NCBI GenBank assembly: GCA_043808785.1
Contig: JAZDEL010000001.1
Coordinates: forward strand, 1 to 32,000
Direction: 5' to 3'
DNA length: 32,000 nt
From: Candidatus Iainarchaeum sp.
GTDB taxonomy: Archaea > Iainarchaeota > Iainarchaeia > Iainarchaeales > JAZDEL01
Position numbers and translations under genes: made by a program. Shown here piece after piece: positions 6,802 to 23,766 of this stretch; position 1 is the stretch's first letter; each line of letters starts with the position of its first letter. The notes under the pieces were generated by a model. That model had not been told where the DNA came from, did no database searches, and saw only the letters and a program-made list of their open reading frames with translations.

Positions 6802-6858
6802 TTCGTCAATAGACGAAACAAATAAAAGGATTTGCGGAGAAATCATTATTGTGTTGGA

Positions 6859-8864: not shown

Positions 8865-8868
8865 GTGC

Positions 8869-9486: not shown

Positions 9487-9487
9487 T

Positions 9488-11005: not shown

Positions 11006-11028
11006 TATTTTCTTACGAATGATTCTGT

Positions 11029-11373
11029 TTATTTTCCTCTTTTTGCATTAAATAAATATTCTTTTTTACAGTCGTTGCAATAAAACCTGACTTCATGTTT
11101 TGTTATTTCCACATTTTTTGATTTGCAAGTATCGCAACAAATATCCGGTTCTGGCACAGGAAAAATGCTTCTTTTGAAAATGGCTCCGAGAATGCCGTTT
11201 CCCGCAAGAAAGATGGCTGCTGGGGGGACTAATGATATGGAAAGCCCGCCAATAAGAAAACTTGCAAAAGGTAGCCCAAAAATTGCGTTAACCAACACAA
11301 CAAACCAGCAGAACAATTGCAACGGAATGCCCACAACTTTTAGGGGAAGGCTGAAAACCAACTTTTTTTCCAT
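11029..11373 (-). CDS. 3-TM membrane protein with a C-terminal zinc ribbon
   Basis: Hydrophobic N-terminal two thirds, then CCDTCKSK...(13 aa)...CNDCKKEY. The track ORF starts at TTG 11409, but ATG 11373 overlaps the stop of the upstream 55-aa ORF (TAATG), which favours MEKKLVF... as the start. Confidence 0.65.
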   Translation of the reverse strand: MEKKLVFSLPLKVVGIPLQLFCWFVVLVNAIFGLPFASFLIGGLSISLVPPAAIFLAGNGILGAIFKRSIFPVPEPDICCDTCKSKNVEITKHEVRFYCNDCKKEYLFNAKRGK

Positions 11374-11540
11374 TAGCGCCACCTCAAAGGGGTTCTGCAT
11401 GAATTGCAAATGACGGCGTTCTTGGGAATTTCAGCTTTGCAAACTGGGCATTTTGGTTTTAATATTTCCGCCAAAAGAGCTAATCCGATAGCCCCTAGCA
11501 CAAGACCAGTCAATAATTCCATTGCTTCATCATTGTCCAT
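11373..11540 (-). CDS. Unannotated 55-aa TM + zinc-ribbon protein
   Basis: My own reverse-complement translation: MDNDEAMELLTGLVLGAIGLALLAEILKPKCPVCKAEIPKNAVICNSCRTPLRWR. The ATG at 11540 immediately follows the hsdS stop codon (11541-11543). Its stop overlaps the next ATG. Below the track's length cutoff. Confidence 0.5.
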   Translation of the reverse strand: MDNDEAMELLTGLVLGAIGLALLAEILKPKCPVCKAEIPKNAVICNSCRTPLRWR

Positions 11541-12686
11541 TCAACTCACCAACTCTCCGGAAAACGCTTTAACCAAAACTGATTTGGGCAGAAAATATAG
11601 TTGCGATTCCATTTTTTTAATTTCAGATTCTATCAATTCGCCTTTTGATTTGATTTCGGTTAATTTGCAGACAATTTTCTTTTGTTCGCTTTTGGGCGGA
11701 AATCTAATGGCATACTTTGATATTTTTTGAAAGGAGGTTCTTGGCAATTGGACCCCTGATGTATTTGCGGATGCAAAAGATACGAATCTGTCTGAAAGTA
11801 GCAAATAAAACAAATATTCACCTTCAATTTCTTCTGAAGGAATTAGCGGAATCAAATCTGTCGAAACCGCCCCAGAAAAATCAGCATAAAACGTCTTATT
11901 CAAATAAGGCCTAAGTTTCCCATAAACAACATCTCCTGGGAAAAATTTATTTTTTGTACTCTTTAAATCAGGGTTCTTAATTTGTGTTATAACTCTTCCT
12001 TTTTTTGACTCGATATGTTCGAATCCAACGTAATTAGTTATTTTTTCTTTTTTTGGGTCAATTTTATCTTTTCTGACTTTAACTAACTCACCTAACGGTT
12101 TTTCAGACCAACCCGCGGGCAAATCTCTGGCATAATGCATTAACCCAGATATTGCTTTTTGCATAATTTCCGCATGTTGCTTTTTCACCGTTTCATTTTC
12201 TTTTTTCATTTCGTCGTATTTTTCAAAGAACGCGTCAAGCTTGGCAACGATTTTTTCTTGGACGGGGAGAGAGGGAACGGGGACTTCTATCTCTAACAAT
12301 TTGGGTTTTGTGATATGTGTCATCCCTGTGCCGTGTGTCTTTTTCTTTATGTCTTCTAAGATATGCTTTATCAAATAGTAAAAATAATTTTTTTTGATAA
12401 TTTTCTCATTTGGAATAACCTTAAAGATGTGCTGGTTGAGAAGTGCATCTCCTTCGTCCCAAATAAAAATATCCAATGTAGCTGACCACGCCAAAAGCAA
12501 ATCGCCATTTTTTATCAAATGTTTTTTTTCATAATCTCCCGCATAATAATTTACTACGTCCGTAGAGTTGGTCAAATTTTGAATACGGATTATTGGTAAG
12601 CCTTTCTTGCCCCATTCACTTGGTTTGAATGCCCTGCCATTAATGTAATCTGCAACTTCCCTAAGCGTTTTAATTTCCGTTTCCAT
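11541..12686 (-). CDS. hsdS: Type I restriction-modification specificity subunit
   Basis: Two target-recognition halves separated by conserved helical spacers (LPVQEKIVAKLDAFFEKYDEMKKE... and PPKSEQKKIVCKLTEIKSKGELIESEIKKME...). Overlaps hsdM by 17 nt. Confidence 0.9.
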   Translation of the reverse strand: METEIKTLREVADYINGRAFKPSEWGKKGLPIIRIQNLTNSTDVVNYYAGDYEKKHLIKNGDLLLAWSATLDIFIWDEGDALLNQHIFKVIPNEKIIKKNYFYYLIKHILEDIKKKTHGTGMTHITKPKLLEIEVPVPSLPVQEKIVAKLDAFFEKYDEMKKENETVKKQHAEIMQKAISGLMHYARDLPAGWSEKPLGELVKVRKDKIDPKKEKITNYVGFEHIESKKGRVITQIKNPDLKSTKNKFFPGDVVYGKLRPYLNKTFYADFSGAVSTDLIPLIPSEEIEGEYLFYLLLSDRFVSFASANTSGVQLPRTSFQKISKYAIRFPPKSEQKKIVCKLTEIKSKGELIESEIKKMESQLYFLPKSVLVKAFSGELVS

Positions 12687-14076
12687 TGTTCAGCACCTGC
12701 TCAATTTCATCAAGATAGCCCGCAATCTTTTCTTGGCTGTTGCGGATGTTTTGAATTATTTCTTCTGGCGTTTCAAGCTCGCCATCGTCAAGGCTTTCAT
12801 CTTTGAGTAAGATAATGTCGAGGTTATACTTGCGCCCCTCTATTTCCTTTCTTAAAAATGATTTGAAGCGTTCCGTTTCGGTGCGCGGGCTCGTTCCGTT
12901 CGGGTTTGAGCCAAAGGCCTTTTCAAACTCGGCGAACATTTCCTGAGTTAAGGGGCGCTCCTTTTTTGTGACGCCCGCAATATTGGTTCGATTGTCATAA
13001 ATCCAGACTTTTTCTGTTTTTGCCCCCTTTGTGAAGAACAAGACATTTGCCTTGACCCCTTGGGAATAAGGCGAAAAGGTTCCGTGAGGCAGCCTGAGAA
13101 CCGTATGCAGGGTGCAATCCTCCATCAGGTTCTTTATGACCTGGCTGGCAGAGTGTTCCTCAAACAAAACATTATCGGGCAAGATAATCGCACACCTGCC
13201 GCCAGGCTTGAGAATAGTTACGCAGTGTTGCAAAAAGTTAAGCTGCTTGTTGCTGGTTTCAATCGTGAAATCCTCTCTTTCGGGTGCCTCGCCCGCGCCC
13301 TTTGTCCCGAATGGGGGGTTGGTCAAAATGCAGGAATATCTTTTATTGGGGTCAGGCTCGGCGATTGAATCGCCCAAATGAATGCCGTCTTTTATCCCGT
13401 GCAGATACAAATTCATCAGCGCAAGCCTTCTCGGGCGCTCGACCAATTCCGTGCCAGAATATGTCTTCTCCTTTAGCCTTTGCAATTCTTCCCTCGGAAT
13501 TTCCGCGCCGCCCTTTGTCTGTCCTATAAGCCATTCGTACGCCTCAACCAAAAACCCGCCAGTTCCGGCGGCTGGGTCGTGAACTGTAAGCCCCTTTTCT
13601 TTAAGCGGATTTGGTTTCATTACTTTGACAATTGACTTTATCAAAATTCTTGGCGTGAAATATTGCCCCGCCCCTTTTTTGGCTTCCGAGGCGGCTTTTT
13701 CTAGCAAGCCCTCGTAGGCCTCCGCCTTAACGTCAACCCCTAAAGCGCTCCATTCGGTTTCGTCAATAAGACTGATAAGTTTTTTCAGATTCACAGGGTT
13801 ATTAAAACGGGAAAGGGCTCCAGCAAATATGTCGCCAAGCATCCCTTTTTCTTTGCCCAGATTCCGCAATAAGTCCGAGTAGAATTCAGTTAGTTCCGTT
13901 CCACTTTTTTCTTTCAGTTTGCCCCAGCTCCACTGCTTCGGTATGTCTTGCCCTTTTTCCTCACCCATTTTAAGGAATAACAAAAACGTCAGTTGTTCTA
14001 TGTAGTCACCGTAGTCTATTCCATCGTGGCGGAGGATGTGGCAGAACCCCCAAAGTTTTTGCACTATGTTCGTCAT
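12670..14076 (-). CDS. hsdM: Type I restriction-modification N6-adenine DNA methyltransferase subunit
   Basis: HsdM N-terminal domain (LWGFCHILRHDGIDYGDYIEQLTFLLFLK), QYFTPR, motif I DPAAGTGGF, and motif IV LTNPPFG. Confidence 0.95.
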   Translation of the reverse strand: MTNIVQKLWGFCHILRHDGIDYGDYIEQLTFLLFLKMGEEKGQDIPKQWSWGKLKEKSGTELTEFYSDLLRNLGKEKGMLGDIFAGALSRFNNPVNLKKLISLIDETEWSALGVDVKAEAYEGLLEKAASEAKKGAGQYFTPRILIKSIVKVMKPNPLKEKGLTVHDPAAGTGGFLVEAYEWLIGQTKGGAEIPREELQRLKEKTYSGTELVERPRRLALMNLYLHGIKDGIHLGDSIAEPDPNKRYSCILTNPPFGTKGAGEAPEREDFTIETSNKQLNFLQHCVTILKPGGRCAIILPDNVLFEEHSASQVIKNLMEDCTLHTVLRLPHGTFSPYSQGVKANVLFFTKGAKTEKVWIYDNRTNIAGVTKKERPLTQEMFAEFEKAFGSNPNGTSPRTETERFKSFLRKEIEGRKYNLDIILLKDESLDDGELETPEEIIQNIRNSQEKIAGYLDEIEQVLNNGNGN

Positions 14077-16736
14077 CTTGCCATCGCCTCATTGAACTGC
14101 TTAAGCAAAGGCTCAAGTTTGCCGTTGAAAATTTTATCCGCCTTTTTCCATGAACCCCGCCTTGCGAAAATTGGCATCTCTTCGAAATCCTCCTTCTCAA
14201 CCGCAAGGTTCGTAACCATGTGGTTCTTGATTAATTCGAGCCACTGCACCTGTTCGGGCGTGAATTGTTTCCCTTTGGTTACTTTCTCAATCGCCTTTGC
14301 AACTCTCTCCTCGGCAGTAAGCAGGGGCTCATTTTTCGCTGCATGCTTGATTATGGAAATAATGTCCGCCAGTTCGTTGTGGTATGCCCTGCGCAGGTTA
14401 TCTTCGGTGAAACGCTGCGGCGTCTGCTCGAGTTTCTTCCTCAAGTCGGTCAGAGGTTCGGTGCCCCAGCCTTTGGGTCTTTCAAGAAGGATTTTAATTG
14501 CCTCGATTTTCTCGGGGTTTTTCTTGACGAATTGTTCAAACTCTTTCAGGTAGTCAACAGGCTTCAACTCCCTGCCATCATTCGTTCTGAAAACATATTC
14601 TGATGAAACCTCATCCTTTGTTTCATGGGCGACAAGGAAAACCTTTTGCGCCTTCGGATAATTGTGTAAAACGTCCTGAAATTCCTTGTTTTCAAGAATC
14701 TTTATCGTGCCAACAAAGTCGGTTTCAAGCCTTTCAGGCAATTTTGAGGCAAATACTCCTATATCGCCTTTCTCTATAAATTTCTCAAACAGCGGAAATG
14801 CCTCGGCGCTCATGCTTTTGGAAATTCTGTGCATCCTCTTAATCAGGCAGGTTGTGTTGTATTTTCTGTCTTGGTTATTATGGATGGCTTTGATAATCTC
14901 CTGCATTGTTCTGCCAGGCTTGTCGGGCGCCTGGCTTGTGAAGTCGGTTATTTTGTTAAAGTATTCCAGAAGCGTTCCGTCAAAACAGTCAAATGCGGTA
15001 AAGTGGGTTTTTCCTATTTCATCGCACGTTCTTGTCCCGCGCCCCATCATTTGCGTAAATAATATCCTCGATTTTACGGGGCGCATGAACACGATATTTT
15101 CAAGCGCGGGAATGTCGATGCCCGTTGAAAGCATATCGACAGTTACAACCACGCCCGGCTTCTGGCGGTTTCTGAACTCGCGGATTCTCTGCAGTGGGCG
15201 GTCAACGTTTGGGTTTCCCGTAATTTTCTGCACAAAATCGTCGCCCTTCCCAAATAGTTCCCTGCAAACCCGCACAATCTGGTCGCAGTGAGATGCGTGC
15301 GGCAAATCACCCACCGCAAAAATAAGGGTTTTGGGGAACCTGCCGAATTCCTTTTCCTGGTTTTTTATATATTTGGCAACTTCTTTCAGAATCTTCCTGT
15401 TGCTGTCGGGTGAAGTTATCTCCTTTTCGATTTTTACAGGGTCAAATTGCCGTTCGTCCTCCAGCTGGTCGAGAACCTCTCTGCCTGTTTCGGTATCAAT
15501 CATCCCGACTTTTTCGTTTTCTTTAAGGAAAATTCCCTTCATCCTCACGTTTGACGCAATCTTTACTTCATCAAAAGGAACCAAATAGCCGTCGTTGACC
15601 GCTTGCTCGTAATCATAGCGGAACACAGGCGTGCCAAAATATGCGGTGGTGTGCGCCGCGGGTGTCGCAGTCAGCCCTATCTTCACTGCATTAAAATGGT
15701 TCAGAACCTCGCGCCACTTGCTTTCTTCCGTTGCGGTGTAACCGCGGTGGCATTCATCCGCGATTACAATGTCAAAAGCGTTTATTGGAATATTAAGTTT
15801 TTCTGCATCAAATTCAGTTTCCTCGCTGGGCTCATCCTCAAAGCGCGATTCCTTCCCGAAGATGTTTATCCTCATCCTCTGGATTGTTGAAACGTAAACA
15901 AACGCAAGGCCCGGCTGCGGGTGCTCGAGGTAATGCGAAGGCAGTTCCTGTGGGTTGAACTTGAAGTCATCATCAAAGTCATCCTTGTGCATCCTCTGGC
16001 TGTAAACCTCGTATAATTTGTCGAACTTCTTTCCTGGCTCGGGCTCGAAAGTTTTGAATGCCCTGACTGCCTGTGCAGCCAGCGCCCTCCTGTCAACAAG
16101 GAAAAGAATTCTCTTGCCATAGTTCGATTTCATCAGGCGATAGATTTCGGAAATTACGGTGTATGTCTTGCCTGTTCCTGTAGCCATTGCAACCATCATG
16201 TTGCGCTTATTTTTCCTCAAAGAATCCTCGATTGCTTTTGTTGCATCAATCTGGTAGTATCTGAGCCGCGGGTGGTCGTTTGGGTGCTTTTCAAGCAATT
16301 CCAGAGCTATTTTTGGATTCTTTAAAAGGAGTTCGTTTATTGCGGAGGGCGTGTGGAACTTGGCAACCTTTTCTGAATAACTCTCGGCATTCCGTAAGTC
16401 TTGGAACCAGATTATTTCGCCGTTTGTGGAATAAATGAATGGCACTTTTAAGCCGTTGAAATCGAACGGGCTATTTTTTACTCCGCGCGCATACCGTTGA
16501 GCCTGAACAAGCACGTTTTGCGGCCCGACGGAAAGCTTTTTTGCCTCAACAACTGCAACAATCAAGCCGTCAATAAAAAGCGCATAATCCGCAGGGCCCT
16601 CTTTGGTGTCGAACTCTCCAACTGCAAAGGCGCCATTTTCGGGTATCTTGTCGGTTGGCTTCAGCACCTTCCAGCCGCTCTCTTTCAGTTTAGGGTCAAT
16701 AAGGGCATAGCGGGTTTGGCTCTCGCTGGGTTTCAT
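14073..16736 (-). CDS. hsdR: Type I restriction enzyme R subunit (nuclease-helicase)
   Basis: N-terminal PD-(D/E)xK (ADYALF...VAVVEAKK). SF2 motifs AMATGTGKT, ADECHRG, LTATP, QMMGRGTR. Long helical C-terminal domain. ATGA overlap with hsdM. Confidence 0.95.
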   Translation of the reverse strand: MKPSESQTRYALIDPKLKESGWKVLKPTDKIPENGAFAVGEFDTKEGPADYALFIDGLIVAVVEAKKLSVGPQNVLVQAQRYARGVKNSPFDFNGLKVPFIYSTNGEIIWFQDLRNAESYSEKVAKFHTPSAINELLLKNPKIALELLEKHPNDHPRLRYYQIDATKAIEDSLRKNKRNMMVAMATGTGKTYTVISEIYRLMKSNYGKRILFLVDRRALAAQAVRAFKTFEPEPGKKFDKLYEVYSQRMHKDDFDDDFKFNPQELPSHYLEHPQPGLAFVYVSTIQRMRINIFGKESRFEDEPSEETEFDAEKLNIPINAFDIVIADECHRGYTATEESKWREVLNHFNAVKIGLTATPAAHTTAYFGTPVFRYDYEQAVNDGYLVPFDEVKIASNVRMKGIFLKENEKVGMIDTETGREVLDQLEDERQFDPVKIEKEITSPDSNRKILKEVAKYIKNQEKEFGRFPKTLIFAVGDLPHASHCDQIVRVCRELFGKGDDFVQKITGNPNVDRPLQRIREFRNRQKPGVVVTVDMLSTGIDIPALENIVFMRPVKSRILFTQMMGRGTRTCDEIGKTHFTAFDCFDGTLLEYFNKITDFTSQAPDKPGRTMQEIIKAIHNNQDRKYNTTCLIKRMHRISKSMSAEAFPLFEKFIEKGDIGVFASKLPERLETDFVGTIKILENKEFQDVLHNYPKAQKVFLVAHETKDEVSSEYVFRTNDGRELKPVDYLKEFEQFVKKNPEKIEAIKILLERPKGWGTEPLTDLRKKLEQTPQRFTEDNLRRAYHNELADIISIIKHAAKNEPLLTAEERVAKAIEKVTKGKQFTPEQVQWLELIKNHMVTNLAVEKEDFEEMPIFARRGSWKKADKIFNGKLEPLLKQFNEAMAR

Positions 16737-16760: not shown

Positions 16761-19073
16761 TTAAAATCCTTGCTTTTGGCTGTTTTCAAACAATTTCCTT
16801 ACCTTCCCCCCCACCTCAGTCCTCGTCAGCACCTCCCCATACTGCGCATACTCCTTCTTCAGTTCCTTGTCCGTAACAACAAAGAACCATAGTTTGTACC
16901 TTTCATTCAGCGCCCTAACCTTCTCCTCAATCTGCGCCTTCTTCTCCGCAACTGAGCCTGTTTCAACCTCCACCGCAACCAGCACATTCAGCCCCTTGAT
17001 ATGGCCTGTCCTGTTCGGCGCAATAAAGGTGATGTCCGCCTCCTTCGTGAACTTTACTGAAACAGTGTCCGTATATTTCCTCAACTCGTCCGCAATCAAC
17101 TCAACCAAAAAAGCGTGCTTGAGCGATTCCTTCCCCGCTGGCTTCTTAATCAAATACGCCTGCCCTCTCCCTTCCCCAAGCCCGGGCTGCCTTGATTCGA
17201 CGAAACCCTGCGCCTTCAGGAACTTTACTTGGTCTTCATTCAAATCCTTGAGCGCGTAATATCTTTTCTCCAAATGATATGGGGAAAAATCCTCCTCCTT
17301 TTTCTCAGCCATTCCCTTAAGCACCTTCTCGCGCATCCGTACCTCGTCCGGGTTTGTCGTTATGAGTTCATGTTCCTTCTCCGAAGCGACAACCCTCAGA
17401 GGAATGTGGTCGTTCATGGCAAACAGCAAACCTTCCCCCTGCGTCGCGGTCAACAGAAAGCCCTGCTCCTCCTCGTTCAAATTGAACTTCTCGCTCAGCT
17501 CCTTCATAACAGCGGGCTCCTGCCTGAGCAAAAGTTTCCACGCAGTGTTTGCAAGCGTTGTAGCCCCTGCCTTGGAACTCAGCAAATCGTTAACCTCCTG
17601 CGTTATTATCACAAGCCCAAGCCCGAACTTGCGCGCGGTCTTAATCATTTCAAAAATATACCTTGAGTGCTGCCCGTAGCGCAATAAAGTCCACGCTTCA
17701 TCAATCACAAGAAGTTTCCGTTCCCTGCTGGCGTGCATCTTGTTCCTCACGAACTCCAGAATCAAAAACATCATCACTGGCTTAACCTGCGAAGGCATCT
17801 CCGCAATGTCAAAAGAAATAAAATCGTTCTCAAGGTCAAGGTTCGTCTGCCTGTTCAGGAAACTGAACGAACCTTTCGCGTAAATCCTAATCCTGTTAGC
17901 AAGCGCGTCATATGTCATGCGCTCAATCTTGCTCCCGCCCTGCTTCTCCTTCTCAATCTCGTTGTACAAATCCTCCATCACGGGCGGCTTTTTGCCCCAT
18001 GTGCTTTTGTTGTTCGAGATAATTCCCTTCTGCTCATAAACACTCTGCACGCACTTGTCAAGGATGTTCTTCTGAACCTCGGAAAGCTCCCCGCACATTA
18101 TGCGGAACAAGTCCATCAAAATCAGCATCTTCTCCCCGAAGTCCTGCCCCATCAAATCAAATGGGTTTATGATTGTCTCGCTCTCCCTGCTTATCTTCAC
18201 AACCTGCCCGTTATACGTTTTCACGACATCCGTGTACTCGCCCTGCGGGTCTATGATGTTAACCTTAACCCCCTTCAGCAAATTCCGCAGAATGAAAAGC
18301 TTGCAGTAAAAACTCTTCCCCCCTCCCGAAGTGCCAAGAATTAAACCATTGTAGTTCGTCAGCCCGTAAGGGTTGATAATTATGGGAATATTGTTCTCCT
18401 TGTTCAGCCCGACCATAATGCCTTCCTCATCCATGTTAAGAAAGGCAGAAGTGAAAGGAAAGCACGCTCCAAGCGCGTGCGAGGTAATATTGCGCGTGAC
18501 ATTCAGCCTGTCCCTCTGCAGGGGAATAACCGACTGCAAAGCCTGAAGCATCCGCAGGCACGGAGTTTTCGGGATTATCATTATTGAATTGAGTTCAGAT
18601 TCAATTTTCCTGCTCAAAAGTTCAAGCTTCTCCCGCGAAGGGGCGCGCGCGTTCACATAAAGCGCGATGTTGAAAAGCTTCTCCTCCCCTTTCTGCAATT
18701 TCTCCAGCGTGCCGAGCGTGTCCTGATGCTGAACCCTCAGCGAGGGGTTTACAATGCCCTTCATCTCCGCCGACATAATGTCCGATTCTTGCTTAACCAA
18801 TTCCTGATTTAAGCCGGTCATAATCGTGTCTATGTTCGCGGGCGTGATGAACATGCTCAAATCGAAATCCCCCTCGCTCGAAACAATAGAGCCTAACCAG
18901 CCCTCCCTAATCAGCCGCGGATATCCGACAGCCATAACCACGCGGTTGTATTGGCTGTTAACCCGTACGCAGTCGAACTCGTTCTTTATGTAGTGCGGCC
19001 TGAGCAGCGGCTGGAGGTCATGCTTCAGCGAAACGCTTTTGCCATTCCCGCGCTTAAAGAAACTTAGCAACAT
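16761..19073 (-). CDS. VirB4/TraC-type type IV secretion ATPase with a ~170-aa C-terminal PD-(D/E)xK-like extension
   Basis: LILGTSGGGKSF (Walker A, nt 18312-18335), VNIIDPQGEY, LLVIDEAW (Walker B), VIITQE. The C-terminal extension has KHAFLVELIADEL ... EADITFI ... LVAVEVETG. Confidence 0.9.
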   Translation of the reverse strand: MLLSFFKRGNGKSVSLKHDLQPLLRPHYIKNEFDCVRVNSQYNRVVMAVGYPRLIREGWLGSIVSSEGDFDLSMFITPANIDTIMTGLNQELVKQESDIMSAEMKGIVNPSLRVQHQDTLGTLEKLQKGEEKLFNIALYVNARAPSREKLELLSRKIESELNSIMIIPKTPCLRMLQALQSVIPLQRDRLNVTRNITSHALGACFPFTSAFLNMDEEGIMVGLNKENNIPIIINPYGLTNYNGLILGTSGGGKSFYCKLFILRNLLKGVKVNIIDPQGEYTDVVKTYNGQVVKISRESETIINPFDLMGQDFGEKMLILMDLFRIMCGELSEVQKNILDKCVQSVYEQKGIISNNKSTWGKKPPVMEDLYNEIEKEKQGGSKIERMTYDALANRIRIYAKGSFSFLNRQTNLDLENDFISFDIAEMPSQVKPVMMFLILEFVRNKMHASRERKLLVIDEAWTLLRYGQHSRYIFEMIKTARKFGLGLVIITQEVNDLLSSKAGATTLANTAWKLLLRQEPAVMKELSEKFNLNEEEQGFLLTATQGEGLLFAMNDHIPLRVVASEKEHELITTNPDEVRMREKVLKGMAEKKEEDFSPYHLEKRYYALKDLNEDQVKFLKAQGFVESRQPGLGEGRGQAYLIKKPAGKESLKHAFLVELIADELRKYTDTVSVKFTKEADITFIAPNRTGHIKGLNVLVAVEVETGSVAEKKAQIEEKVRALNERYKLWFFVVTDKELKKEYAQYGEVLTRTEVGGKVRKLFENSQKQGF

Positions 19074-19242
19074 CTCCCCTCCTTTTTTTCACAATTTCCG
19101 TGAATTCCTTCTCATTGTTCTTAATCTCTTTTATTTTTACCCCGAACAGAACCCTCGCCACCGCGGCAAGAATGCGGTTCATCCTCCCGAGCTGCCGAGA
19201 ACTTTCTATTATCGCATCCTCAACCTTCTTGTCCATGCGCAT
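19054..19242 (-). CDS. Possible small protein (about 60 aa) between the VirB3-like and VirB4 genes
   Basis: A shortened version (from MRMDKK...) of track ORF 19054-19353. It would fill an otherwise non-coding 146-nt gap and overlaps the VirB4 start by 20 nt. No motif recognised. Confidence 0.3.
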   Translation of the reverse strand: MRMDKKVEDAIIESSRQLGRMNRILAAVARVLFGVKIKEIKNNEKEFTEIVKKRRGDVAKFL

Positions 19243-20188
19243 TTTTTCCGCCAAATGAATCACCCCCTTTTGCCTTGCCGAATTCATCAAGAACCGTAAC
19301 AGCGGAAACGTAATCCCCGCCAGCCTCGACAAACCCCTCAAAATAAGACGCAAGCAAAGAAGTCAGTTCGCCCGTGCCGAGCCTTCTCGTGGAAAGGTTG
19401 CACGCCTTCAGTTTGCCTTGGCACAATTTGGCACGTATCGCCAATTGGTTCAGCGCAATTTCGCTATTCAGTTCATACGTTGTCTTCTGCTTTTCGCGCG
19501 AAAACAAATTCCTGAAGTTCACAAAAATATCCCGCAGAACATTCGCGGAAAAAGACGGCGAATACGGAATGATGATGTAAAAAAGGCGGTTCTTCACGGC
19601 ATTTTCCTCTATGAACCCACGCATGAACTCTTGGAATGAATTGAACTGCTCAAGCAACTGCTCCTTTTTCAGCGCCTTAACTTCGCCCTCCAAATGTGAA
19701 AGGTAGTCGTCAATCGAAAGGTTAACCGTGCGCATAACTATCTGTATCGGGAAATCAAGGGAGTTGAGGAAGTCGGAAAAAGCCCGCACAATCGCCCTCT
19801 GCTGTTCTTGCTCTAAAATCGAAAAATTAATAGGTGTGACCTGCACAACCGCAAGCATCCCGTCCTTCAGGTAAACAGTGTCATCTGATATCCTCTCGAC
19901 TTCTATGAACTTGTTTATCCGCGGGTCGAAATAGCCAGCCTCGCCGATTGAGGCTTTGAATGTCGCAAAGTTCTTCAGGTGCGTACCCAAGCCGAAAAAG
20001 GCGAACCCTGCGGCCAGCAGCGCGAAAAACACTGCGGCGGCAACCTTAATCTCAAATGGTAGCGCGGTTTTGAGGAAAACAACAGCACCCATGCCCCCAA
20101 ACAACCCAACCCAAGCAAGCTGGCTGAACGTGAGGTTGAACAGTATTTTTTCGCTGTATTTCAGGTTCTGCGGTATTTCGTATGCCAT
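19220..20188 (-). CDS. PrgI/VirB3-like membrane protein fused to a cytoplasmic VirB4-N-terminal-like domain
   Basis: The N-terminus MAYEIPQNLKYSEKILFNLTFSQLAWVGLFG plus two TM helices matches the PrgI-family signature (P..l....K..FnLT.rQl). It is followed by VYLKDGMLAVVQVTPINFSILEQEQQRAIVRAFSDFLNSLDFPIQIV, which resembles N-terminal regions of monoderm VirB4 proteins. Confidence 0.7.
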   Translation of the reverse strand: MAYEIPQNLKYSEKILFNLTFSQLAWVGLFGGMGAVVFLKTALPFEIKVAAAVFFALLAAGFAFFGLGTHLKNFATFKASIGEAGYFDPRINKFIEVERISDDTVYLKDGMLAVVQVTPINFSILEQEQQRAIVRAFSDFLNSLDFPIQIVMRTVNLSIDDYLSHLEGEVKALKKEQLLEQFNSFQEFMRGFIEENAVKNRLFYIIIPYSPSFSANVLRDIFVNFRNLFSREKQKTTYELNSEIALNQLAIRAKLCQGKLKACNLSTRRLGTGELTSLLASYFEGFVEAGGDYVSAVTVLDEFGKAKGGDSFGGKNAHGQEG

Positions 20189-20203
20189 TTTCTCAACCCC
20201 TAA

Positions 20204-21151
20204 TCACTCCCATGCCTGCGGCACGCTGCTCTCCAGCGGCACTGTCTGCTTCGATGCATGTGCAATAGCCCTGCCGTAAGTTGCGCCCAAGTAACTGTTC
20301 AGGACAGGCACATGGCTCACAATTGCCAGCGCGGCGTTTATTATTGCAAACAGCATGATGCAGATGTTGGTTATCGCTATCAAAGAAAACGCGATTGTCG
20401 GCGCCCAGCCAACCATCTCGGGGTATGCGCTGAATTCGGTCTCGAGCATCCATGCCGAAATTAAAATTATCACGTCAATTATCTGCATGAACAGCGCGGC
20501 GCCGATAAGGTTCAGCGGTATCTTGCCCCAAGATTGTAGCTGCGGTATGAGGTAAAGGAAAATTCCGATAGGGAAAAGCACTGCCCCAATCCACAGGAAT
20601 ATGTAGCGGATTACAACCGTTATGAACGCGGTAAGCACAGTGCCCCCGAACGCAAGTAGCAGGAAAAGGTTCAGCGAACTTATCGAACTGGAAGTAAAGA
20701 GCGGCTCAAGTTCGCTTGTCCAGAGCGCAGATGCAATCAGCGAGCCTATGGAAAGTACGAGAACGTAAAGAGTATAACTCGCGTTCACTGCAATAACCAT
20801 CAGCACTGCCTTCTTCAGTCCATCTTTTGCCCCAGCCCTTTGGTTCGCATCATACGAACCAATGATGAATTTCAGCCCCACAATCAGGAAGATGAGCAGG
20901 TAAAAAAGAGAAATTATGTAAATAACCATGTCGGAAATCGGCTTCATCAGCGCGGGGTCGGGGTTTGTCGTTATGAAAACCTTAAACAGCGAGAGCAACG
21001 ATGCAAGAAAATTGACGCCCTCGCCCTTCACGCCCGACATCAGCGCGTCAACAAAGTTCTTCCCCAAATCATTCAGCGGGTCCCAAAACCCCGCGCTCGC
21101 CGAGCCGCAAAGCATCAGCAGCACAGCCAGAACCAGAACCGCCCTTTTCAA
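20204..21151 (-). CDS. VirB6/TrbL-like polytopic membrane protein
   Basis: Signal peptide (MKRAVLVLAVLLMLCGSASA) followed by about 6-7 TM helices. It sits between a secreted protein and the VirB3/VirB4 genes. ATGA overlap with the upstream gene. Assignment rests on architecture and context only. Confidence 0.6.
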   Translation of the reverse strand: MKRAVLVLAVLLMLCGSASAGFWDPLNDLGKNFVDALMSGVKGEGVNFLASLLSLFKVFITTNPDPALMKPISDMVIYIISLFYLLIFLIVGLKFIIGSYDANQRAGAKDGLKKAVLMVIAVNASYTLYVLVLSIGSLIASALWTSELEPLFTSSSISSLNLFLLLAFGGTVLTAFITVVIRYIFLWIGAVLFPIGIFLYLIPQLQSWGKIPLNLIGAALFMQIIDVIILISAWMLETEFSAYPEMVGWAPTIAFSLIAITNICIMLFAIINAALAIVSHVPVLNSYLGATYGRAIAHASKQTVPLESSVPQAWE

Positions 21152-22620
21152 GCAAGCACCCCGAGCTTTTTCTTTGCGATAAAATAAAAGATGTAATAAA
21201 CGCCCGCGAAGATGCCGATGTCTTTCGCGGTTTCGGTTGTGTCGTCATAAACAACCCCGATGCGTTTCGTGTCGGAAGCGGAACCGTGCTCAAAGTCAGT
21301 ATGGAACTCCGCTGAAACAACACCCTTTGATTCTGCCGCGCTTACCTGCGCTTCCGCCTTGCCGCTGCCGTCCGTAACCAATTCCTTGAAATTCAGCCCA
21401 TATTTCAGTTCAACCTTGCCGTTAGCAAGCGGCGCCCCACTTTCATCGGAAAGATGCACAACCGCCTTCACTGTTTCATTTGCATCGTAGGAATTTTTGT
21501 CAAGAGCAAGCCACACAACAGCGTCCGGCAAATCTGACAGATTGCATTTACTTCCTAAATCAAATTCCCCAAAATCGCCTGAAATTTTTGCGGAGCAATT
21601 TCCTGCGTTCTTCTCCAGCATAAGTTCAGCGAGATACACCCCCCTGTTTTTGGAAACCGTGCCAGCAACATTCCGCTTCTCCTCCGAGAATTCCTGGACA
21701 CGCTCCACATGCAGGGCATCGTAAGGTTCAAGTCCGTAGTTCAGTTTGTAAGAAGCCTCGCTAACGGAGAGCGTGGCATCGTCAAGCGTAAAATCAAACT
21801 CATTGAAAGGTTGCGTAGCCCCAAACTCAAGCAGAACAGTGTCCAACCCGTTGCCGTCATTGTAAGCCATGCGGAAATCGTAACTGAACTGCCGAGTTTC
21901 CGCATCCAGCAAATTGGAAACTGAAAGTGCATCAGTCCTGTATTCCGTGTGTGAGAACACACAGCTCGTGTTGCAAGTCCAATCCAAGCCGGGAATCCAA
22001 CACGAAGTGTATTCCCTGTAGTGGTCTGTTTTCAGTTTCGTAGCCAAATCAACATTCGCTTTGAATTGTTTTGCCTTTGCATCGGAACTGAAAGTAGCAA
22101 CTTTCCCCGAACCAATCCGCGCGCCGTTAAGGAAAACTCCTATATCCTCCTTCCCAATAGTGTAAGAGTAAACAGTCCTGCAATCCCCCGATGCCGTGCC
22201 TGTCGGCAGTTCAATCCTGTAATTGTACGCGTTTATCACATTGCCCGAAGAATCCACGAGCCAAACAGATTCATTCGTGTCAAAAACGCTGGGGCTGATG
22301 CCGACAACCTTAACCCACGCATCTCTGATTATCCCGTTGCTCTGCGCCGAAACTCCCGCAGGCGGAGTGTTGAACTGCAGCCCCCTGTTCCATTCAAAAA
22401 CAAAGTCGTGGTTCTCGGCAAGGGTTGGCTTGCTCAGAAGCCCGAGAATGCCCTCCTTTTTCTCAGCCTGCGTGAGCGAGGTATCCTTAATAATCGCCTC
22501 GCAGTCTTTGTAGTCGATGCTCGGCAGTTTGCCGCACGAATCAGGCAGCAGGCCATCCGCCCGAACAAGTGGCACGAGCATCAGCATAAGGCATATTTCC
22601 ATGGCTAGCGTAGCTTTCAT
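21148..22620 (-). CDS. Cys-rich secreted protein with an Ig-like domain and a C-terminal TM anchor
   Basis: Signal peptide MKATLAMEICLMLMLVPLVRADG. At least 8 Cys in the ectodomain. An Ig-like segment (ETVKAVVHLSDESGAPLANGKVELKYG...TDGSGKAEAQV). C-terminal anchor IGIFAGVYYIFYFIAKKK. AGAGGTGA SD upstream. Confidence 0.75.
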   Translation of the reverse strand: MKATLAMEICLMLMLVPLVRADGLLPDSCGKLPSIDYKDCEAIIKDTSLTQAEKKEGILGLLSKPTLAENHDFVFEWNRGLQFNTPPAGVSAQSNGIIRDAWVKVVGISPSVFDTNESVWLVDSSGNVINAYNYRIELPTGTASGDCRTVYSYTIGKEDIGVFLNGARIGSGKVATFSSDAKAKQFKANVDLATKLKTDHYREYTSCWIPGLDWTCNTSCVFSHTEYRTDALSVSNLLDAETRQFSYDFRMAYNDGNGLDTVLLEFGATQPFNEFDFTLDDATLSVSEASYKLNYGLEPYDALHVERVQEFSEEKRNVAGTVSKNRGVYLAELMLEKNAGNCSAKISGDFGEFDLGSKCNLSDLPDAVVWLALDKNSYDANETVKAVVHLSDESGAPLANGKVELKYGLNFKELVTDGSGKAEAQVSAAESKGVVSAEFHTDFEHGSASDTKRIGVVYDDTTETAKDIGIFAGVYYIFYFIAKKKLGVLA

Positions 22621-22665
22621 TCGTTCACCTCTGTGGGGTGGGTGGGGGCGGAAAAGGCATTACGC

Positions 22666-23007
22666 CTATATTCCGCCCGTTCCTGATGCAGTAAGGAATT
22701 GAACCAAGGCAGGCGCAACCGCTACCAAAACAAGGCCGCCAACGCAACATGTAGCCGCGACCTTCGCGCCCTCCCTTGCCTGTATGTTCGAGCCGGCAAC
22801 CATGTATGCAACCGCGGCACCGAAGAACCCGAGTGTTGCGAATCCCCCGACTATGTACTGAACCAGCGTTATTAGGTTGTCAATTGGCTCCTTTATCTTG
22901 TCCATGTCCGCGCTCGCGGCAAAAACAGGCCCGAGCATAAGGAACACGGAAGCAAGAAAACACAAAATCCTTTTTCCGTCCAAAATGATTCCTCCTTTGA
23001 AGTTCAT
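22666..23007 (-). CDS. VirB2/TrbC-like (CedA1/TedC-like) pilin candidate
   Basis: 113 aa: signal peptide (..LMLGPVFAASA), then two hydrophobic helices joined by a short basic loop (LVQYIVGGFATLGFFGAAVAYMV - GSNIQAREGAK - VAATCCVGGLVLVAVAPALVQFL). First gene of the train. Assignment by architecture. Confidence 0.6.
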   Translation of the reverse strand: MNFKGGIILDGKRILCFLASVFLMLGPVFAASADMDKIKEPIDNLITLVQYIVGGFATLGFFGAAVAYMVAGSNIQAREGAKVAATCCVGGLVLVAVAPALVQFLTASGTGGI

Positions 23008-23025
23008 ACGGACCTTCTGCCGCGG

Positions 23026-23037
23026 CTAAATAAATGG
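23026..23037 (-). promoter_or_regulatory. TATA-like box upstream of the pilin gene (head of the long minus-strand gene train)
   Basis: The reverse complement reads ccatttatttag, centred about 23 nt upstream of ATG 23007. It is the only sizeable non-coding gap upstream of the train. Confidence 0.4.
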
Positions 23038-23158
23038 ATTCCTTATGTTACCTATGCAAGGTGGCATAAGTCAGCCTTATAAATTCCAAAAACGGGGTTT
23101 TTGTATGACGGCATCTAACCCACATTCAAAGAGAGGCCGTTGCGATGGAGGAAAAACC

Positions 23159-23289: not shown

Positions 23290-23544
23290 ATGCTATTTTT
23301 GAGCGGGAATTCGAATGCGGCAGTTGCCGCGCCCAGAACCAAGCGCTGCTTCTTCTGCGAGAGTGACAGGGGGCGGATGAGAAAAGTATCCAGCCACAAT
23401 GGGCAGGTAAGGCGCCATGTTTGCTACCGTTGTGTGGCTAAAGTCGGCTGGGCTGAGACCTGTGCAATCCTCGAGCGCGTGCCATTTTACCGCGAGCAAA
23501 CCAACTTTTTCAAGGGGCAGCTCGGCTTGGTTAAAGCATTATAG
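23290..23544 (+). CDS. Possible zinc-finger protein (84 aa)
   Basis: CFFC...(19 aa)...CYRC pairs. GGGGA lies 5 nt upstream of the ATG. No family recognised. Confidence 0.35.
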   Translation: MLFLSGNSNAAVAAPRTKRCFFCESDRGRMRKVSSHNGQVRRHVCYRCVAKVGWAETCAILERVPFYREQTNFFKGQLGLVKAL

Positions 23545-23766
23545 CTTATGCTGTTTTTTCACTCTCAGAGTAGGTACTTTTGCCACAATGACTTTACTGC
23601 CCTCTATGCGCCAGATTATTTTTTGCTTTTCCCTGACCACGCCAAGACAGAGCATTTCCTCAGCCACGCGCTTTGGGATGTTCGTGCGATAGTAGAACTT
23701 GCCGGGGTTCTTCTTTTTGTCTGGTTCGTAAACCGTAATTGTTGTTTCCGATTCAAGAGGGGACAT
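23539..23766 (-). CDS. AbrB/SpoVT-like small DNA-binding protein (75 aa)
   Basis: KFYYRTNIPKRVAEEMLCLGVV...IIWRIEGSKVIVAKV resembles the looped-hinge-helix pattern (v.IPk.v.e.lgl..g..v....dg..i.i.k). Confidence 0.5.
   Translation of the reverse strand: MSPLESETTITVYEPDKKKNPGKFYYRTNIPKRVAEEMLCLGVVREKQKIIWRIEGSKVIVAKVPTLRVKKQHKL

What the first reader, a model, noticed from the sequence alone, without database searches (positions are those of the whole stretch)
16761..23007. Minimal archaeal VirB2/VirB6/VirB3/VirB4 module (Ced/Ted-like) without relaxase or coupling protein
Five to six co-directional genes with 0-45 nt spacers encode: a two-helix hairpin pilin candidate with a signal peptide; a Cys-rich secreted, C-terminally anchored protein; a signal-peptide-bearing polytopic membrane protein; a PrgI/VirB3-signature protein; and a clear VirB4 ATPase (GTSGGGKS, IIDPQGEY, LLVIDEAW). 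No relaxase, VirD4-type coupling protein, VirB11 or integrase is visible anywhere in the 32 kb. That composition resembles the archaeal Ced (Sulfolobales) and Ted (Pyrobaculum) DNA-import machineries, which are built from VirB2-, VirB6- and VirB4-like parts, more than it resembles a conjugative plasmid. In an organism with this gene content (possibly a small-genome archaeon), such an apparatus could mediate DNA uptake or host interaction. This particular gene set has an extra secreted protein, a VirB3 fusion and a nuclease-tailed VirB4, so it looks like a distinct variant.
Basis: partly seen in the sequence, partly recalled or inferred. Interest (0 to 1): 0.75.

Follow-up and report, generated by a model that had tools for sequence, protein, structure and literature searches.

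The report
Minimal DPANN archaeal type IV secretion module
A small-genome (DPANN) archaeon carries a stripped-down pilus-and-motor machine related to bacterial conjugation systems; in relatives the same genes are the core of small integrating mobile elements, so it more likely moves DNA between cells than acts as a host DNA-uptake system.

Summary
Window 16761-23007 (minus strand) has five intact, co-directional genes:
- a VirB2/TrbC pilin;
- a secreted, C-terminally anchored protein with a cysteine motif;
- a polytopic membrane protein;
- a PrgI/VirB3 protein;
- a VirB4 ATPase with a C-terminal nuclease-like domain.

Two corrections. The "VirB3 fusion" is VirB3 plus the first ~200 residues of VirB4 (TrsD-like), so VirB3-VirB4 is split across two ORFs. 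The "extra" secreted protein is a recurrent component of the system, not an oddity of this window.

The module is conserved in DPANN genomes: 307 relatives were confirmed and 80 loci inspected. By sequence the VirB4 belongs with the monoderm conjugative (MPF-FATA, CD1110) lineage, not with CedB.

No relaxase or coupling protein was found in the window or in the neighbour genes scanned. However, 17 of 44 relatives with enough upstream sequence carry a dedicated, almost always co-oriented tyrosine recombinase, often beside a tRNA gene. Three Iainarchaeia loci share a sharply bounded 8-10 kb unit running from integrase to T4SS. Cargo is DNA methylases, restriction-modification and other defence genes.

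This favours a conjugation-like module of integrative elements over a Ced/Ted-type import system. Transfer direction is untested. The window copy has no integrase in view and is followed by a type I R-M operon.

The parts
22666..23007 (-). VirB2/TrbC-type T4SS pilin precursor (113 aa): a signal peptide followed by a two-helix hairpin
   Evidence: Pfam T4SS_pilin 6.6e-10 and TrbC 1.1e-8, both above the gathering score. Hydropathy agrees. The family occurs in 58 related loci, just upstream of the other genes. NCBI names it 'TrbC/VirB2 family protein'.
23008..23100 (-). Candidate archaeal promoter for the module: a TTTATTTA box about 25-32 nt upstream of the pilin ATG, which would suggest a leaderless mRNA
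   Evidence: Read directly from the sequence. This is inference only. No archaeal promoter model was available.
21148..22620 (-). Secreted, C-terminally membrane-anchored protein (490 aa). It has an N-terminal Cys-x(n)-Cys / SLxxxEK motif and a variable, probably beta-rich ectodomain. It is a candidate adhesin or contact component.
   Evidence: The family is present in 21 loci at the same position. Short versions of 130-140 aa (families c17 and c27) share the signal peptide, the Cys motif and the C-terminal anchor. The only Pfam hits are weak ones to Big_1 and Invasin_D3. The structure prediction failed, with pLDDT 32.
20204..21151 (-). Polytopic membrane protein (315 aa) in the VirB6 position. 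Residues 71-122 form a pilin-like hairpin.
   Evidence: The family is present in 63 loci. Precomputed Pfam tables list TrbL_3 (PF19590) for relatives. hhalign of the pilin family against this family gives probability 95.6%, E 1.2e-8. Eight of 13 members hit Pfam T4SS_pilin. The window protein itself has no Pfam hit, and there is no sequence hit in PDB.
19220..20188 (-). PrgI/VirB3 (residues 5-68, two TM helices) fused to the N-terminal, TrsD/TraC-like part of VirB4 (residues ~91-211). This is the first half of a split VirB3-VirB4.
   Evidence: Pfam PrgI 7.6e-8. NCBIfam matches to the VirB4 N-terminal region (4.2e-8) and to TrsD (5.8e-4). It aligns to residues 1-271 of the fused 1029-aa P0010. 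The split form occurs in 40 loci.
19074..19219 (-). Gap between the two halves of VirB3-VirB4. It carries a GGAGGGG ribosome-binding motif before the ATG at 19073. The overlapping small ORF (19054..19353) is not conserved.
   Evidence: The small ORFs at this position in L003 are unrelated. No family hit.
17316..19073 (-). VirB4 ATPase proper: the rest of the N-terminal domain plus the P-loop motor (Walker A GTSGGGKS, Walker B LLVIDEAW)
   Evidence: NCBIfam CD1110 family 1.6e-96, covering profile positions 190-735. Pfam P-loop_TraG 1.5e-26. It aligns to residues 286-1027 of fused P0010 at 61% identity. The motifs are invariant.
16761..17315 (-). C-terminal domain of VirB4 (~185 aa): a small alpha/beta subdomain followed by a PD-(D/E)xK nuclease-like fold. 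H653, D680, E702 and K718 are invariant; E704 is nearly so.
   Evidence: AlphaFold2 mean pLDDT 90.5. Foldseek against PDB: most of the leading hits are restriction-endonuclease-fold nucleases (MUS81, EndoMS/NucS, XPF, BamHI, Hjc, Ecl18kI). The best has E 5e-3, probability 0.99 and TM about 0.35. Conservation. A profile search found 766 clusters. About 41 of the 149 representatives examined are VirB4 tails, and the rest include standalone and TM-anchored forms.
11541..16736 (-). Type I restriction-modification operon: hsdR 14073-16736, hsdM 12670-14076, hsdS 11541-12686. It starts 24 nt after the VirB4 stop and is probably cargo of the same island.
   Evidence: Pfam and NCBIfam hits. HsdM-family genes recur near the module in 9 other loci, and HsdR follows close downstream of VirB4 in L053 as well.

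Best explanation
The five genes encode a minimal, pilus-forming type IV secretion-like machine of the monoderm conjugative (MPF-FATA) lineage, which is widespread in DPANN archaea.

Inferred roles:
- A Sec-exported VirB2-type pilin would polymerise into a pilus.
- A polytopic membrane protein containing its own pilin-like hairpin would form the membrane platform or channel (the VirB6 position).
- VirB3 (PrgI) would anchor the VirB4 hexameric motor. In this lineage the motor is encoded in two pieces: VirB3 + TrsD-like N-domain, and the rest.
- A surface-anchored cysteine-motif protein with a variable ectodomain would mediate cell contact.
- The nuclease-like C-terminal domain on VirB4 would process DNA at the cytoplasmic face, standing in for the missing relaxase and coupling protein.

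In relatives this module is the conserved backbone of integrating mobile elements made of a tyrosine recombinase, DNA methylases, the T4SS and defence cargo. Its most likely job is therefore conjugation-like cell-to-cell transfer of such an element.

The copy in this window has no recombinase within 9 kb upstream or anywhere downstream in the window. It is joined to a type I R-M operon. It may be an immobilised or larger island.

Shown: gene identities, conservation, the mobile-element context in relatives, and the nuclease-like fold.
Inferred: pilus formation, DNA as the substrate, direction of transfer, and nuclease activity.
For: Component identities.

Lineage:
- VirB4 scores 324 bits against CD1110 and 58 bits against CedB.
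- The nearest annotated plasmid genes are CD1110-type VirB4 at about 30% identity.

Conservation:
- 307 relatives were confirmed among GTDB species genomes. Nearly all of the best 80 loci are labelled as DPANN or unclassified archaea.
- Gene order pilin - (Cys-motif protein) - membrane protein - (VirB3N) - VirB4 is conserved.

Mobile-element context:
- One orthologous tyrosine recombinase family (HMM E about 1e-106 to 1e-148 for the co-oriented upstream copies) lies upstream in 17 of 44 loci with at least 8 kb of upstream sequence, almost always on the same strand.
- A tRNA gene (Asp x6, Leu, Glu) lies directly upstream of the integrase, within about 160 nt, in 8 Woese/Pace/Nanoarchaeota loci.
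- L001, L018 and L033, three loci from different samples or assemblies, share 74-78% DNA similarity. It begins at the identical sequence ACGCAGAGGAAGA about 100 nt before the integrase and ends just after the gene following VirB4. The flanks are largely unrelated.
- The right end in L033 lies 78 nt from the 3' end of tRNA-Glu.
- Several assemblies hold two diverged copies.
- Cargo is N6/N4, MT-A70 and Dcm-like methylases, HsdM/R, AbiEii, Fic, a Gabija-like pair and GHKL ATPases (Dcm judged by eye).

Nuclease-like tail.

Archaeal conjugative plasmids and ICEs also lack relaxases (PMC6563490).
Against: - The window itself shows no integrase, att repeats or tRNA.
- No att direct repeats were found in any relative, and no circular contigs.
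- 27 of the 44 informative relatives lack the integrase within 10 kb.
- No known conjugative system works without a coupling ATPase, and none is present here.
- Foldseek support for the nuclease fold is weak numerically (E 5e-3, TM about 0.35), and the canonical lysine of the ExK motif is replaced (ExE, with a conserved K in the next helix).
- Neither DNA transfer nor its direction has been tested.
- The related Patescibacteria system, which has a similar part list, is chromosomal and is thought not to be conjugative (PMC12102498).
Confidence: 0.5

Rival explanations
1. A Ced/Ted-like DNA import machine. The pilus and VirB4 motor would pull DNA from neighbouring or host cells into the DPANN cell, for repair or as a nucleotide source. 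The nuclease tail would process the incoming DNA.
For: - It has the same minimal part list as Ced/Ted (VirB2-, VirB6- and VirB4-like; PMC9905601).
- No relaxase or coupling protein was found in the window or in the neighbours scanned.
- A nuclease at the membrane motor would suit uptake, and membrane-anchored standalone copies of the domain exist.
- DPANN archaea have reduced biosynthesis (general knowledge).
Against: - VirB4 is far from CedB (58 bits against a cut-off of 700) and CedD (45 bits against 600), and close to conjugative CD1110.
- The pilin and membrane-protein profiles hit no PDB sequence at E<=10. If the Ced and Ted pilins solved in PMC9905601 are among the PDB sequences searched, they were not matched; their presence there was not checked.
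- In relatives the module is carried by integrase-bounded elements with methylase and defence cargo, sometimes in two copies per assembly. That is unlike the chromosomal, single-copy Ced/Ted loci.
- The HerA, ParA and Rad50 neighbours typical of Ted loci are absent.
Confidence: 0.2
2. A host-interaction apparatus like the Patescibacteria T4SS. The pilus and the surface protein would attach the episymbiont to its host, and the motor would move proteins or metabolites rather than a mobile element.
For: - The domain set is the one reported as widespread in Patescibacteria: VirB4, TrsD, PrgI/VirB3, VirB6 and VirB2-like pilins, mostly without relaxase. Those genes are essential for epibiotic growth in one strain (PMC12102498).
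- The system appears confined to small-genome DPANN lineages.
- The contact protein has a highly variable ectodomain.
- Nanohaloarchaeal giant adhesins carry VirB4 domains (PMC10266531).
Against: - The distribution is mobile-element-like, with integrase, tRNA adjacency, orphan methylases and defence cargo. This contrasts with the conserved chromosomal placement near dnaA reported for Patescibacteria.
- A conserved nuclease-like domain on the motor points to DNA.
- No effector candidates recur next to the module.
Confidence: 0.2
3. This particular copy is a decaying or inert remnant of a mobile element and has no current function.
For: No integrase is visible in the window. GC content is heterogeneous across 7.6-24 kb. 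VirB3-VirB4 is in two ORFs.
Against: - All five ORFs are intact and full length, with the catalytic motifs preserved.
- The two-ORF arrangement is the conserved state in 40 loci, not a frameshift.
- There is a ribosome-binding motif before the second ORF.
Confidence: 0.07

Closest known systems
MPF-FATA conjugative T4SS of Firmicutes/Actinobacteria/Tenericutes (CD1110/Tn916-type, pCF10 PrgI-PrgJ, pGO1 TrsC-TrsD-TrsE)
   Same: - VirB4 scores highest against the CD1110 family (324 bits, against a cut-off of 325 for a full-length protein).
- PrgI-type VirB3.
- The TrsD-like N-terminal piece is encoded apart from the ATPase, as in pGO1.
- Monoderm-type system with no outer-membrane parts.
   Different: - It has a VirB2-type pilin, which MPF-FATA systems lack.
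- No coupling protein, relaxase, VirB8-like protein or cell-wall hydrolase was found.
- VirB4 carries an extra C-terminal nuclease-like domain.
- There is an extra cysteine-motif anchored protein.
- Identity is only about 30%.
Patescibacteria (CPR) T4SS described in PMC12102498
   Same: Same set of domains: VirB4, TrsD, PrgI/VirB3, VirB6-like and VirB2-like pilins of Pfam T4SS_pilin/TrbC type. It is also MPF-FATA-derived, mostly lacks a relaxase, and occurs in ultra-small episymbionts.
   Different: - There, the genes are chromosomal, near-universal (about 80% of genomes) and often near dnaA. No VirB3-VirB4 fusions were found, and T4CP homologues exist elsewhere in those genomes.
- Here, VirB3 is fused to TrsD or to the whole VirB4. 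A nuclease-like tail is present. Relatives sit in integrase-bounded elements.
- A direct phylogenetic link was not tested.
Ced (Sulfolobales) and Ted (Thermoproteales) DNA-import systems (PMC9905601)
   Same: Archaeal. A minimal VirB2-like + VirB6-like + VirB4-like set without relaxase or coupling protein.
   Different: - The CedB and CedD models score far below their cut-offs.
- The pilin and membrane-protein profiles hit no PDB sequence at E<=10.
- Ced and Ted are chromosomal host systems, with Ups pili or HerA/ParA/Rad50 neighbours. This module travels with integrases and defence cargo.
Archaeal conjugative plasmids and ICEs (Sulfolobus pNOB8-type; thaumarchaeal ICEs, PMC6563490)
   Same: Integrative elements with a tyrosine recombinase, VirB4, VirB6- and VirB3-like proteins, pilins and no recognisable relaxase.
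   Different: - Those carry a VirB4 + VirD4 pair and are large (median 64 kb).
- The DPANN units have one ATPase only and can be as small as about 8 kb.

Membership tests
Type IV secretion system, MPF-FATA lineage | VirB4 ATPase with intact Walker A/B that groups with monoderm conjugative VirB4 | tested here: met
   NCBIfam CD1110 1.6e-96 (324.3 bits, cut-off 325, on a protein that lacks its first ~190 profile positions). Next best are the Mycoplasma ICE VirB4 at 276 bits, then TraC-F at 169 and VirB4_CagE at 127. The motifs are invariant. No tree was built.
Type IV secretion system, MPF-FATA lineage | VirB3/PrgI membrane partner of VirB4 | tested here: met
   Pfam PrgI 33.2 bits against a cut-off of 27, residues 5-68, with two TM segments.
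Type IV secretion system, MPF-FATA lineage | VirB6/PrgH-type polytopic channel protein | tested here: inconclusive
   Relatives carry a precomputed TrbL_3 (PF19590) hit. The Pfam copy used here gave no TrbL hit for 13 family members and instead gave T4SS_pilin for 8 of them. There is no PDB sequence hit. No usable structure model could be made.
Type IV secretion system, MPF-FATA lineage | Coupling protein (VirD4/TcpA) and relaxase for conjugation | tested here: not met
   None in the window ORFs. None in the Pfam-annotated neighbourhoods L001-L003. None among the recurrent neighbour families or the large genes between integrase and pilin that were scanned with Pfam; the remaining recurrent families were judged by eye only. 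CONJScan and MOBscan profiles were not available.
Ced system | CedB-type ATPase | tested here: not met
   NCBIfam CedB 57.9 bits against a cut-off of 700. CedD 45 bits against 600.
Ced system | CedA channel and CedA1/CedA2 pilins | tested here: not met
   The pilin-family and membrane-protein-family profiles find no PDB sequence at E<=10. Whether the CedA1 sequence is among those searched was not checked. Fold-level comparison was not possible.
Ted system | TedA/TedB/TedC with HerA, ParA and Rad50 neighbours | tested here: not met
   The pilin profile gave no PDB sequence hit; whether TedC is among the sequences searched was not checked. There are no HerA, ParA or Rad50 genes in the window. 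No TedA or TedB profile was available.
Patescibacteria-type T4SS | VirB4 + TrsD + PrgI + VirB6-like + VirB2-like pilin set | tested here: met
   All five domain types were detected. TrsD match 5.8e-4 on residues 100-176 of the 322-aa protein.
Patescibacteria-type T4SS | VirB4 inside the Patescibacteria clade; conserved chromosomal placement | not tested
   No named Patescibacteria VirB4 sequences were available for a tree. The context in DPANN relatives is mobile-element-like.
Integrative and conjugative element (ICE) | Integrase and defined ends (att sites) | tested here: inconclusive
   Window: no integrase, no tRNA and no flanking repeats. Relatives: integrase in 17 of 44 informative loci, tRNA-adjacent in 8, and a common left end plus conserved right end in three loci. 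No att repeats were found.
Integrative and conjugative element (ICE) | Self-transfer by its own T4SS | not testable with these tools
   This needs mating experiments or population data showing excision and transfer.
PD-(D/E)xK nuclease superfamily (VirB4 C-terminal domain) | Restriction-endonuclease-like alpha/beta fold with a conserved acidic active site | tested here: met
   The model has pLDDT 90.5. Most of the leading Foldseek hits are MUS81, NucS/EndoMS, XPF, Ecl18kI, BamHI, Hjc and VRR_NUC, with probability up to 0.99 but E of only 5e-3 and TM about 0.35. D680, E702 and K718 are invariant and E704 nearly so, a BamHI-like D...ExE arrangement. Activity is untested.

The most novel reading that the evidence does not exclude
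DPANN archaea host a family of very small (from about 8 kb) self-transmissible integrative elements. Their whole transfer machine would be a pilin, a pilin-containing membrane protein, a contact protein and one VirB3-VirB4-nuclease polypeptide. In that polypeptide the nuclease tail would replace both relaxase and coupling protein. This would be the simplest conjugation apparatus known.
Probability: 0.25. Interest if true: 0.85.

Novelty: new variant of a known kind. Interest (0 to 1): 0.62.

Why it matters
Archaeal conjugation is poorly understood. Nothing found in the searched literature describes a T4SS-like system or a conjugative element in DPANN archaea. The only near exception is VirB4 domains reported in nanohaloarchaeal giant proteins.

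If this module really transfers DNA, three things would follow:
- It would define a minimal parts list for conjugation: one ATPase, no relaxase and no coupling protein.
- It would give a candidate route for gene flow among ultra-small archaea and their hosts.
- It would explain how restriction-modification and other defence genes spread in these lineages.

If instead the module serves host interaction, it would be the archaeal counterpart of the Patescibacteria T4SS that is essential for epibiotic growth.

Either way, the nuclease-tailed VirB4 and the pilin-like hairpin inside the VirB6-position protein are concrete, testable features.

Tried and rejected
- **Source contig lookup.** An exact lookup of the window's VirB4 in the gene-position index found nothing, so the contig beyond the window could not be read.
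- **att sites.** I searched for tRNA 3'-end repeats downstream of the module, for local alignments of the element ends, and for direct repeats in the window and in L001, L003, L018 and L033. Only chance-level matches turned up.
- **Circular contigs.** No terminal overlaps in 25 whole-contig loci.
- **IMG/VR scan.** Only distant matches at 20-25% identity, so the module is not viral.
- **490-aa protein.**
  - Two database searches, one with the single sequence and one with a 20-sequence profile, returned only itself and one fragment.
  - The two-sequence model was unusable, with pLDDT 32.
- **PDB sequence searches.**
  - The C-terminal domain profile gave only spurious polyubiquitin matches to a short stretch.
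  - The pilin and membrane-protein profiles gave nothing.
- **Unknown window ORFs.** PADLOC and PHROGs scans of the unknown ORFs and of the 490-aa and 315-aa proteins gave nothing useful.
- **Frameshift or pseudogene reading of the 322/770 split.** Rejected. The split is conserved in 40 loci and has its own ribosome-binding motif.
- **Small ORF in the 146-nt gap as a sixth component.** Rejected. It is not conserved in relatives.

Full report
**1. Observation**

The region 16761-23007 holds five intact ORFs on the minus strand at exactly the coordinates given:
- 113 aa, 23007..22666;
- 490 aa, 22620..21148;
- 315 aa, 21151..20204;
- 322 aa, 20188..19220;
- 770 aa, 19073..16761.

The spacers are 45, -4, 15 and 146 nt. 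The 146-nt gap carries a GGAGGGG motif in front of the ATG of the last gene.

Family hits:
- The 113-aa protein passes the Pfam gathering scores of both T4SS_pilin and TrbC/VirB2.
- The 322-aa protein passes PrgI.
- The 770-aa protein matches P-loop_TraG, AAA_10 and DUF87. In NCBIfam it matches the CD1110 family of VirB4-like conjugal transfer ATPases at 1.6e-96.

The exception is the C-terminal anchor of the 490-aa protein, which is seen in the sequence but falls below the threshold.

An exact copy of the VirB4 is on record from an NCBI metagenome-assembled genome named Candidatus Diapherotrites archaeon, on a 214-kb contig. NCBI already labels the pilin 'TrbC/VirB2 family protein' and the 322-aa protein 'PrgI family protein'. 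The other two are labelled hypothetical.

**2. Two corrections to the anatomy**

*The split VirB3-VirB4.* The 322-aa protein is not simply VirB3.
- Residues 5-68 are PrgI.
- Residues ~91-211 match the N-terminal region of VirB4 models and, weakly, TrsD.
- The 770-aa protein matches the CD1110 profile only from position 190 onward.
- Against a fused 1029-aa relative (P0010), the 322-aa ORF aligns to residues 1-271 and the 770-aa ORF to residues 286-1027.

So VirB3-VirB4 is encoded in two pieces. This is not a frameshift. The two-gene form occurs in 40 related loci, mostly Iainarchaeia. Woese-, Pace- and Nanoarchaeota mostly carry a single ~1000-aa fusion. A separately encoded TrsD-like N-domain is also the arrangement in pGO1-type and Patescibacteria systems (PMC12102498).

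*The 490-aa protein.* It is not an oddity of this window.
- Its family occupies the same slot in 21 loci.
- In 11 more loci the slot holds 130-140-aa proteins. These share the signal peptide, an N-terminal Cys-x(n)-Cys / S-L-x-x-x-E-K motif and a C-terminal membrane anchor, but lack the long ectodomain.

**3. The other two parts**

*The 315-aa membrane protein.*
- It has no family hit of its own.
- It is 22-37% identical to 12 sampled members of a family found in 63 loci.
- Precomputed tables list Pfam TrbL_3 for three relatives.
- In the Pfam copy available here, 8 of 13 members matched T4SS_pilin instead.
- A profile-profile comparison aligns the pilin hairpin to residues 71-122 of the membrane protein at 95.6% probability.

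I therefore treat it as the occupant of the VirB6 position that contains a pilin-like hairpin. Formal VirB6 membership is left open.

*The C-terminal ~185 residues of VirB4.*
- They are conserved across the whole DPANN family. H653, D680, E702 and K718 are invariant.
- AlphaFold2 with a 21-sequence alignment gave pLDDT 90.5.
- Most of the leading Foldseek matches against PDB are PD-(D/E)xK nucleases: MUS81, EndoMS/NucS, XPF, Ecl18kI, BamHI, Hjc and VRR_NUC.
- The numbers are modest (E 5e-3, TM about 0.35), because the model has two subdomains.
- A profile search of 1.84 billion representatives found 766 clusters. Of the 149 best examined (other than the window's own protein), 9 are full-length VirB4 and 32 are colinear VirB4 fragments. 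The rest include free 170-190-aa proteins and ~290-370-aa proteins with N-terminal membrane helices.

'Nuclease-tailed VirB4' is therefore supported at the fold level. Activity is untested.

**4. Relatives and their context**

A scan of one genome per GTDB species confirmed 307 relatives. Nearly all of the best 80 are labelled as DPANN or unclassified archaea: Iainarchaeum at ~54-65% identity, and Woese-, Pace- and Nanoarchaeota at 43-48%. Three bins carry other labels (see section 8).

I called ORFs in all loci and clustered them. Among 55 loci with at least 4 kb upstream, 46 have both the pilin and the membrane protein beside VirB4.

The neighbours are what changes the interpretation:
- **Integrase.** One family of tyrosine recombinase with a zinc ribbon lies upstream. 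It is present in 17 of 44 loci with at least 8 kb of upstream sequence, almost always on the same strand, and it has no hit in the window.
- **tRNA adjacency.** In eight Woese/Pace/Nanoarchaeota loci a tRNA gene (Asp-GTC six times, Leu, Glu) lies directly upstream of that integrase, within about 160 nt.
- **A discrete unit.** L001, L018 and L033 come from different samples or assemblies and share 74-78% DNA similarity. It starts at the identical sequence ACGCAGAGGAAGA about 100 nt before the integrase and stops just after the DUF4145 gene that follows VirB4. The flanks are largely unrelated, and the unit is 7.8-10 kb. In L033 the right end lies 78 nt from the 3' end of a tRNA-Glu.
- **Copy number.** Several assemblies carry two diverged copies.
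- **Cargo.** Recurrent or variable neighbours are N6/N4, MT-A70 and Dcm-like DNA methylases, HsdM/HsdR, AbiEii, Fic, TrmB regulators, a Gabija-like pair, GHKL ATPases and an AAA_13 ATPase (Dcm judged by eye from the sequence).
- **What is missing.** No coupling protein or relaxase appeared among the neighbours scanned. The other recurrent families were judged by eye only.

**5. What this means for the window**

The window copy has the full module, with the 490-aa type of contact protein as in L017 and L026. It has no integrase, tRNA or flanking repeats.

A type I R-M operon starts 24 nt after the VirB4 stop. HsdM genes recur near the module in nine other loci, and HsdR follows close downstream of VirB4 in L053 as well.

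GC content is uneven: 0.35-0.41 at 7.6-13 kb, about 0.49 over the module, and 0.53-0.55 to the right. NCBI protein numbering implies that only about three genes of the contig lie left of the window. Any integrase would therefore have to lie more than 9 kb upstream of the pilin gene, or in that short left stretch.

**6. Mechanism and rivals**

The best-supported reading is a conjugation-like DNA transfer module of DPANN integrative elements (confidence about 0.5).

For it: the conjugative lineage of VirB4, the integrase/tRNA/methylase/defence context, the discrete unit with a sharp common left end, multiple diverged copies, and a DNA-processing-type domain on the motor.

Against it: no coupling ATPase, no att sites, no circular forms, most informative relatives without an integrase in view, and no functional data.

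The rivals:
- **Ced/Ted-like import (about 0.2).** It shares the part list. However, it fails the CedB test (58 bits against 700) and does not fit the mobile context.
- **Patescibacteria-like host-interaction role (about 0.2).** It shares the exact domain set. However, that system is chromosomal and near-universal in its phylum (PMC12102498).
- **Inert remnant (about 0.07).** This is unlikely given the intact genes.

The absence of a relaxase does not discriminate between these readings, because archaeal conjugative plasmids and ICEs also lack one (PMC6563490).

**7. Novelty**

The individual domains are recognised by automatic annotation. Literature searches found the following:
- a description of the analogous Patescibacteria system (PMC12102498);
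- Ced/Ted (PMC9905601);
- thaumarchaeal ICEs (PMC6563490);
- VirB4 domains in nanohaloarchaeal giant proteins (PMC10266531).

They found no description of this DPANN module, its nuclease-tailed VirB4 or its small integrase-bounded elements. The library does not cover subscription journals, so prior description cannot be excluded. I rate it a new variant of a known kind.

**8. Limits**

- ORF calling and clustering in the loci were my own crude procedure (longest-ORF greedy selection, then BLASTP single linkage).
- MAG bins can mix strains, so 'two copies per genome' is provisional.
- Three relatives sit in bins labelled as bacteria or Methanosarcinales (L023, L041, L070) and one further relative (P0011) is named Sphaerochaetaceae. 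These are probably mis-binned.
- No tree was built.
- Structure models for the 490-aa and 315-aa proteins could not be obtained, because the tool accepted only window sequences and database hits. The two-sequence model of the 490-aa protein was unusable, and no model of the 315-aa protein was attempted.

Noticed in passing
window 11541-16736 (minus strand): A complete type I restriction-modification operon (hsdR, hsdM, hsdS, with overlapping genes) begins 24 nt after the VirB4 stop codon on the same strand. HsdM-family genes recur near the module in nine other loci, and HsdR follows close downstream of VirB4 in L053.
   Followed up: partly
window 20204-21151, residues 71-122 of the 315-aa protein: The polytopic membrane protein contains a hairpin homologous to the VirB2-type pilin encoded two genes upstream (hhalign 95.6%, E 1.2e-8). 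Eight of 13 family members hit Pfam T4SS_pilin.
   Followed up: yes
P0123-P0271 (profile search with window 16761-17315): The VirB4 C-terminal nuclease-like domain also occurs as free 170-190-aa proteins. It also occurs as ~290-370-aa proteins with N-terminal membrane helices and a charged linker. Their gene context could not be examined.
   Followed up: partly
window 6397-7188 (plus strand): Two small nuclease genes lie side by side: HNH (134 aa) and GIY-YIG (118 aa). An HD-domain gene precedes them at 5290-5880.
   Followed up: no
window 7600-13000: A low-GC stretch (0.35-0.41) holding ORFs of 505, 205, 126 and 120 aa (minus strand) and 241 aa (plus strand). None has a hit in Pfam, and none of those submitted to NCBIfam, PADLOC or PHROGs has a hit there.
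   Followed up: partly
window 23901-25457 (minus strand): A 518-aa protein with a glycine-rich N-terminus and one membrane segment. Only faint matches to choice-of-anchor D and S-layer models hint at a surface domain. It lies upstream of the pilin gene and is not conserved next to the module in relatives.
   Followed up: partly
window 23290-23766: Small genes lie between the 518-aa gene and the pilin gene. One is a 75-aa ORF on the module strand with no family hit. Another is an 84-aa Cys-rich ORF on the opposite strand with a weak Endonuclease VII match (0.0027).
   Followed up: no
P0087 (relative of the window VirB4): A 1251-aa VirB4 relative carries LAGLIDADG homing-endonuclease and intein Pfam domains. 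This suggests an intein inserted in a DPANN VirB4.
   Followed up: no
L078 3078-6351; L049 4972-6978; L083 3186-5252; L074 4061-6205: The variable genes between the integrase and the methylase in related elements are defence-like. L078 has a Gabija-like pair (AAA_15 + OLD-TOPRIM, and a UvrD helicase). L049 and L083 have GHKL ATPases. L074 has an AAA_13 ATPase.
   Followed up: partly
L018 1450-1540: Just outside the left end of the element in L018 there is a degenerate second copy of the element's own left-end sequence. It may be a trace of an earlier or tandem insertion.
   Followed up: no
L023, L041, L070, P0011: Relatives of the window VirB4 (44-65% identity) sit in bins or records labelled Peregrinibacteria, Bdellovibrionales, Methanosarcinales and Sphaerochaetaceae. 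This is either mis-binning of DPANN contigs or transfer across lineages.
   Followed up: no
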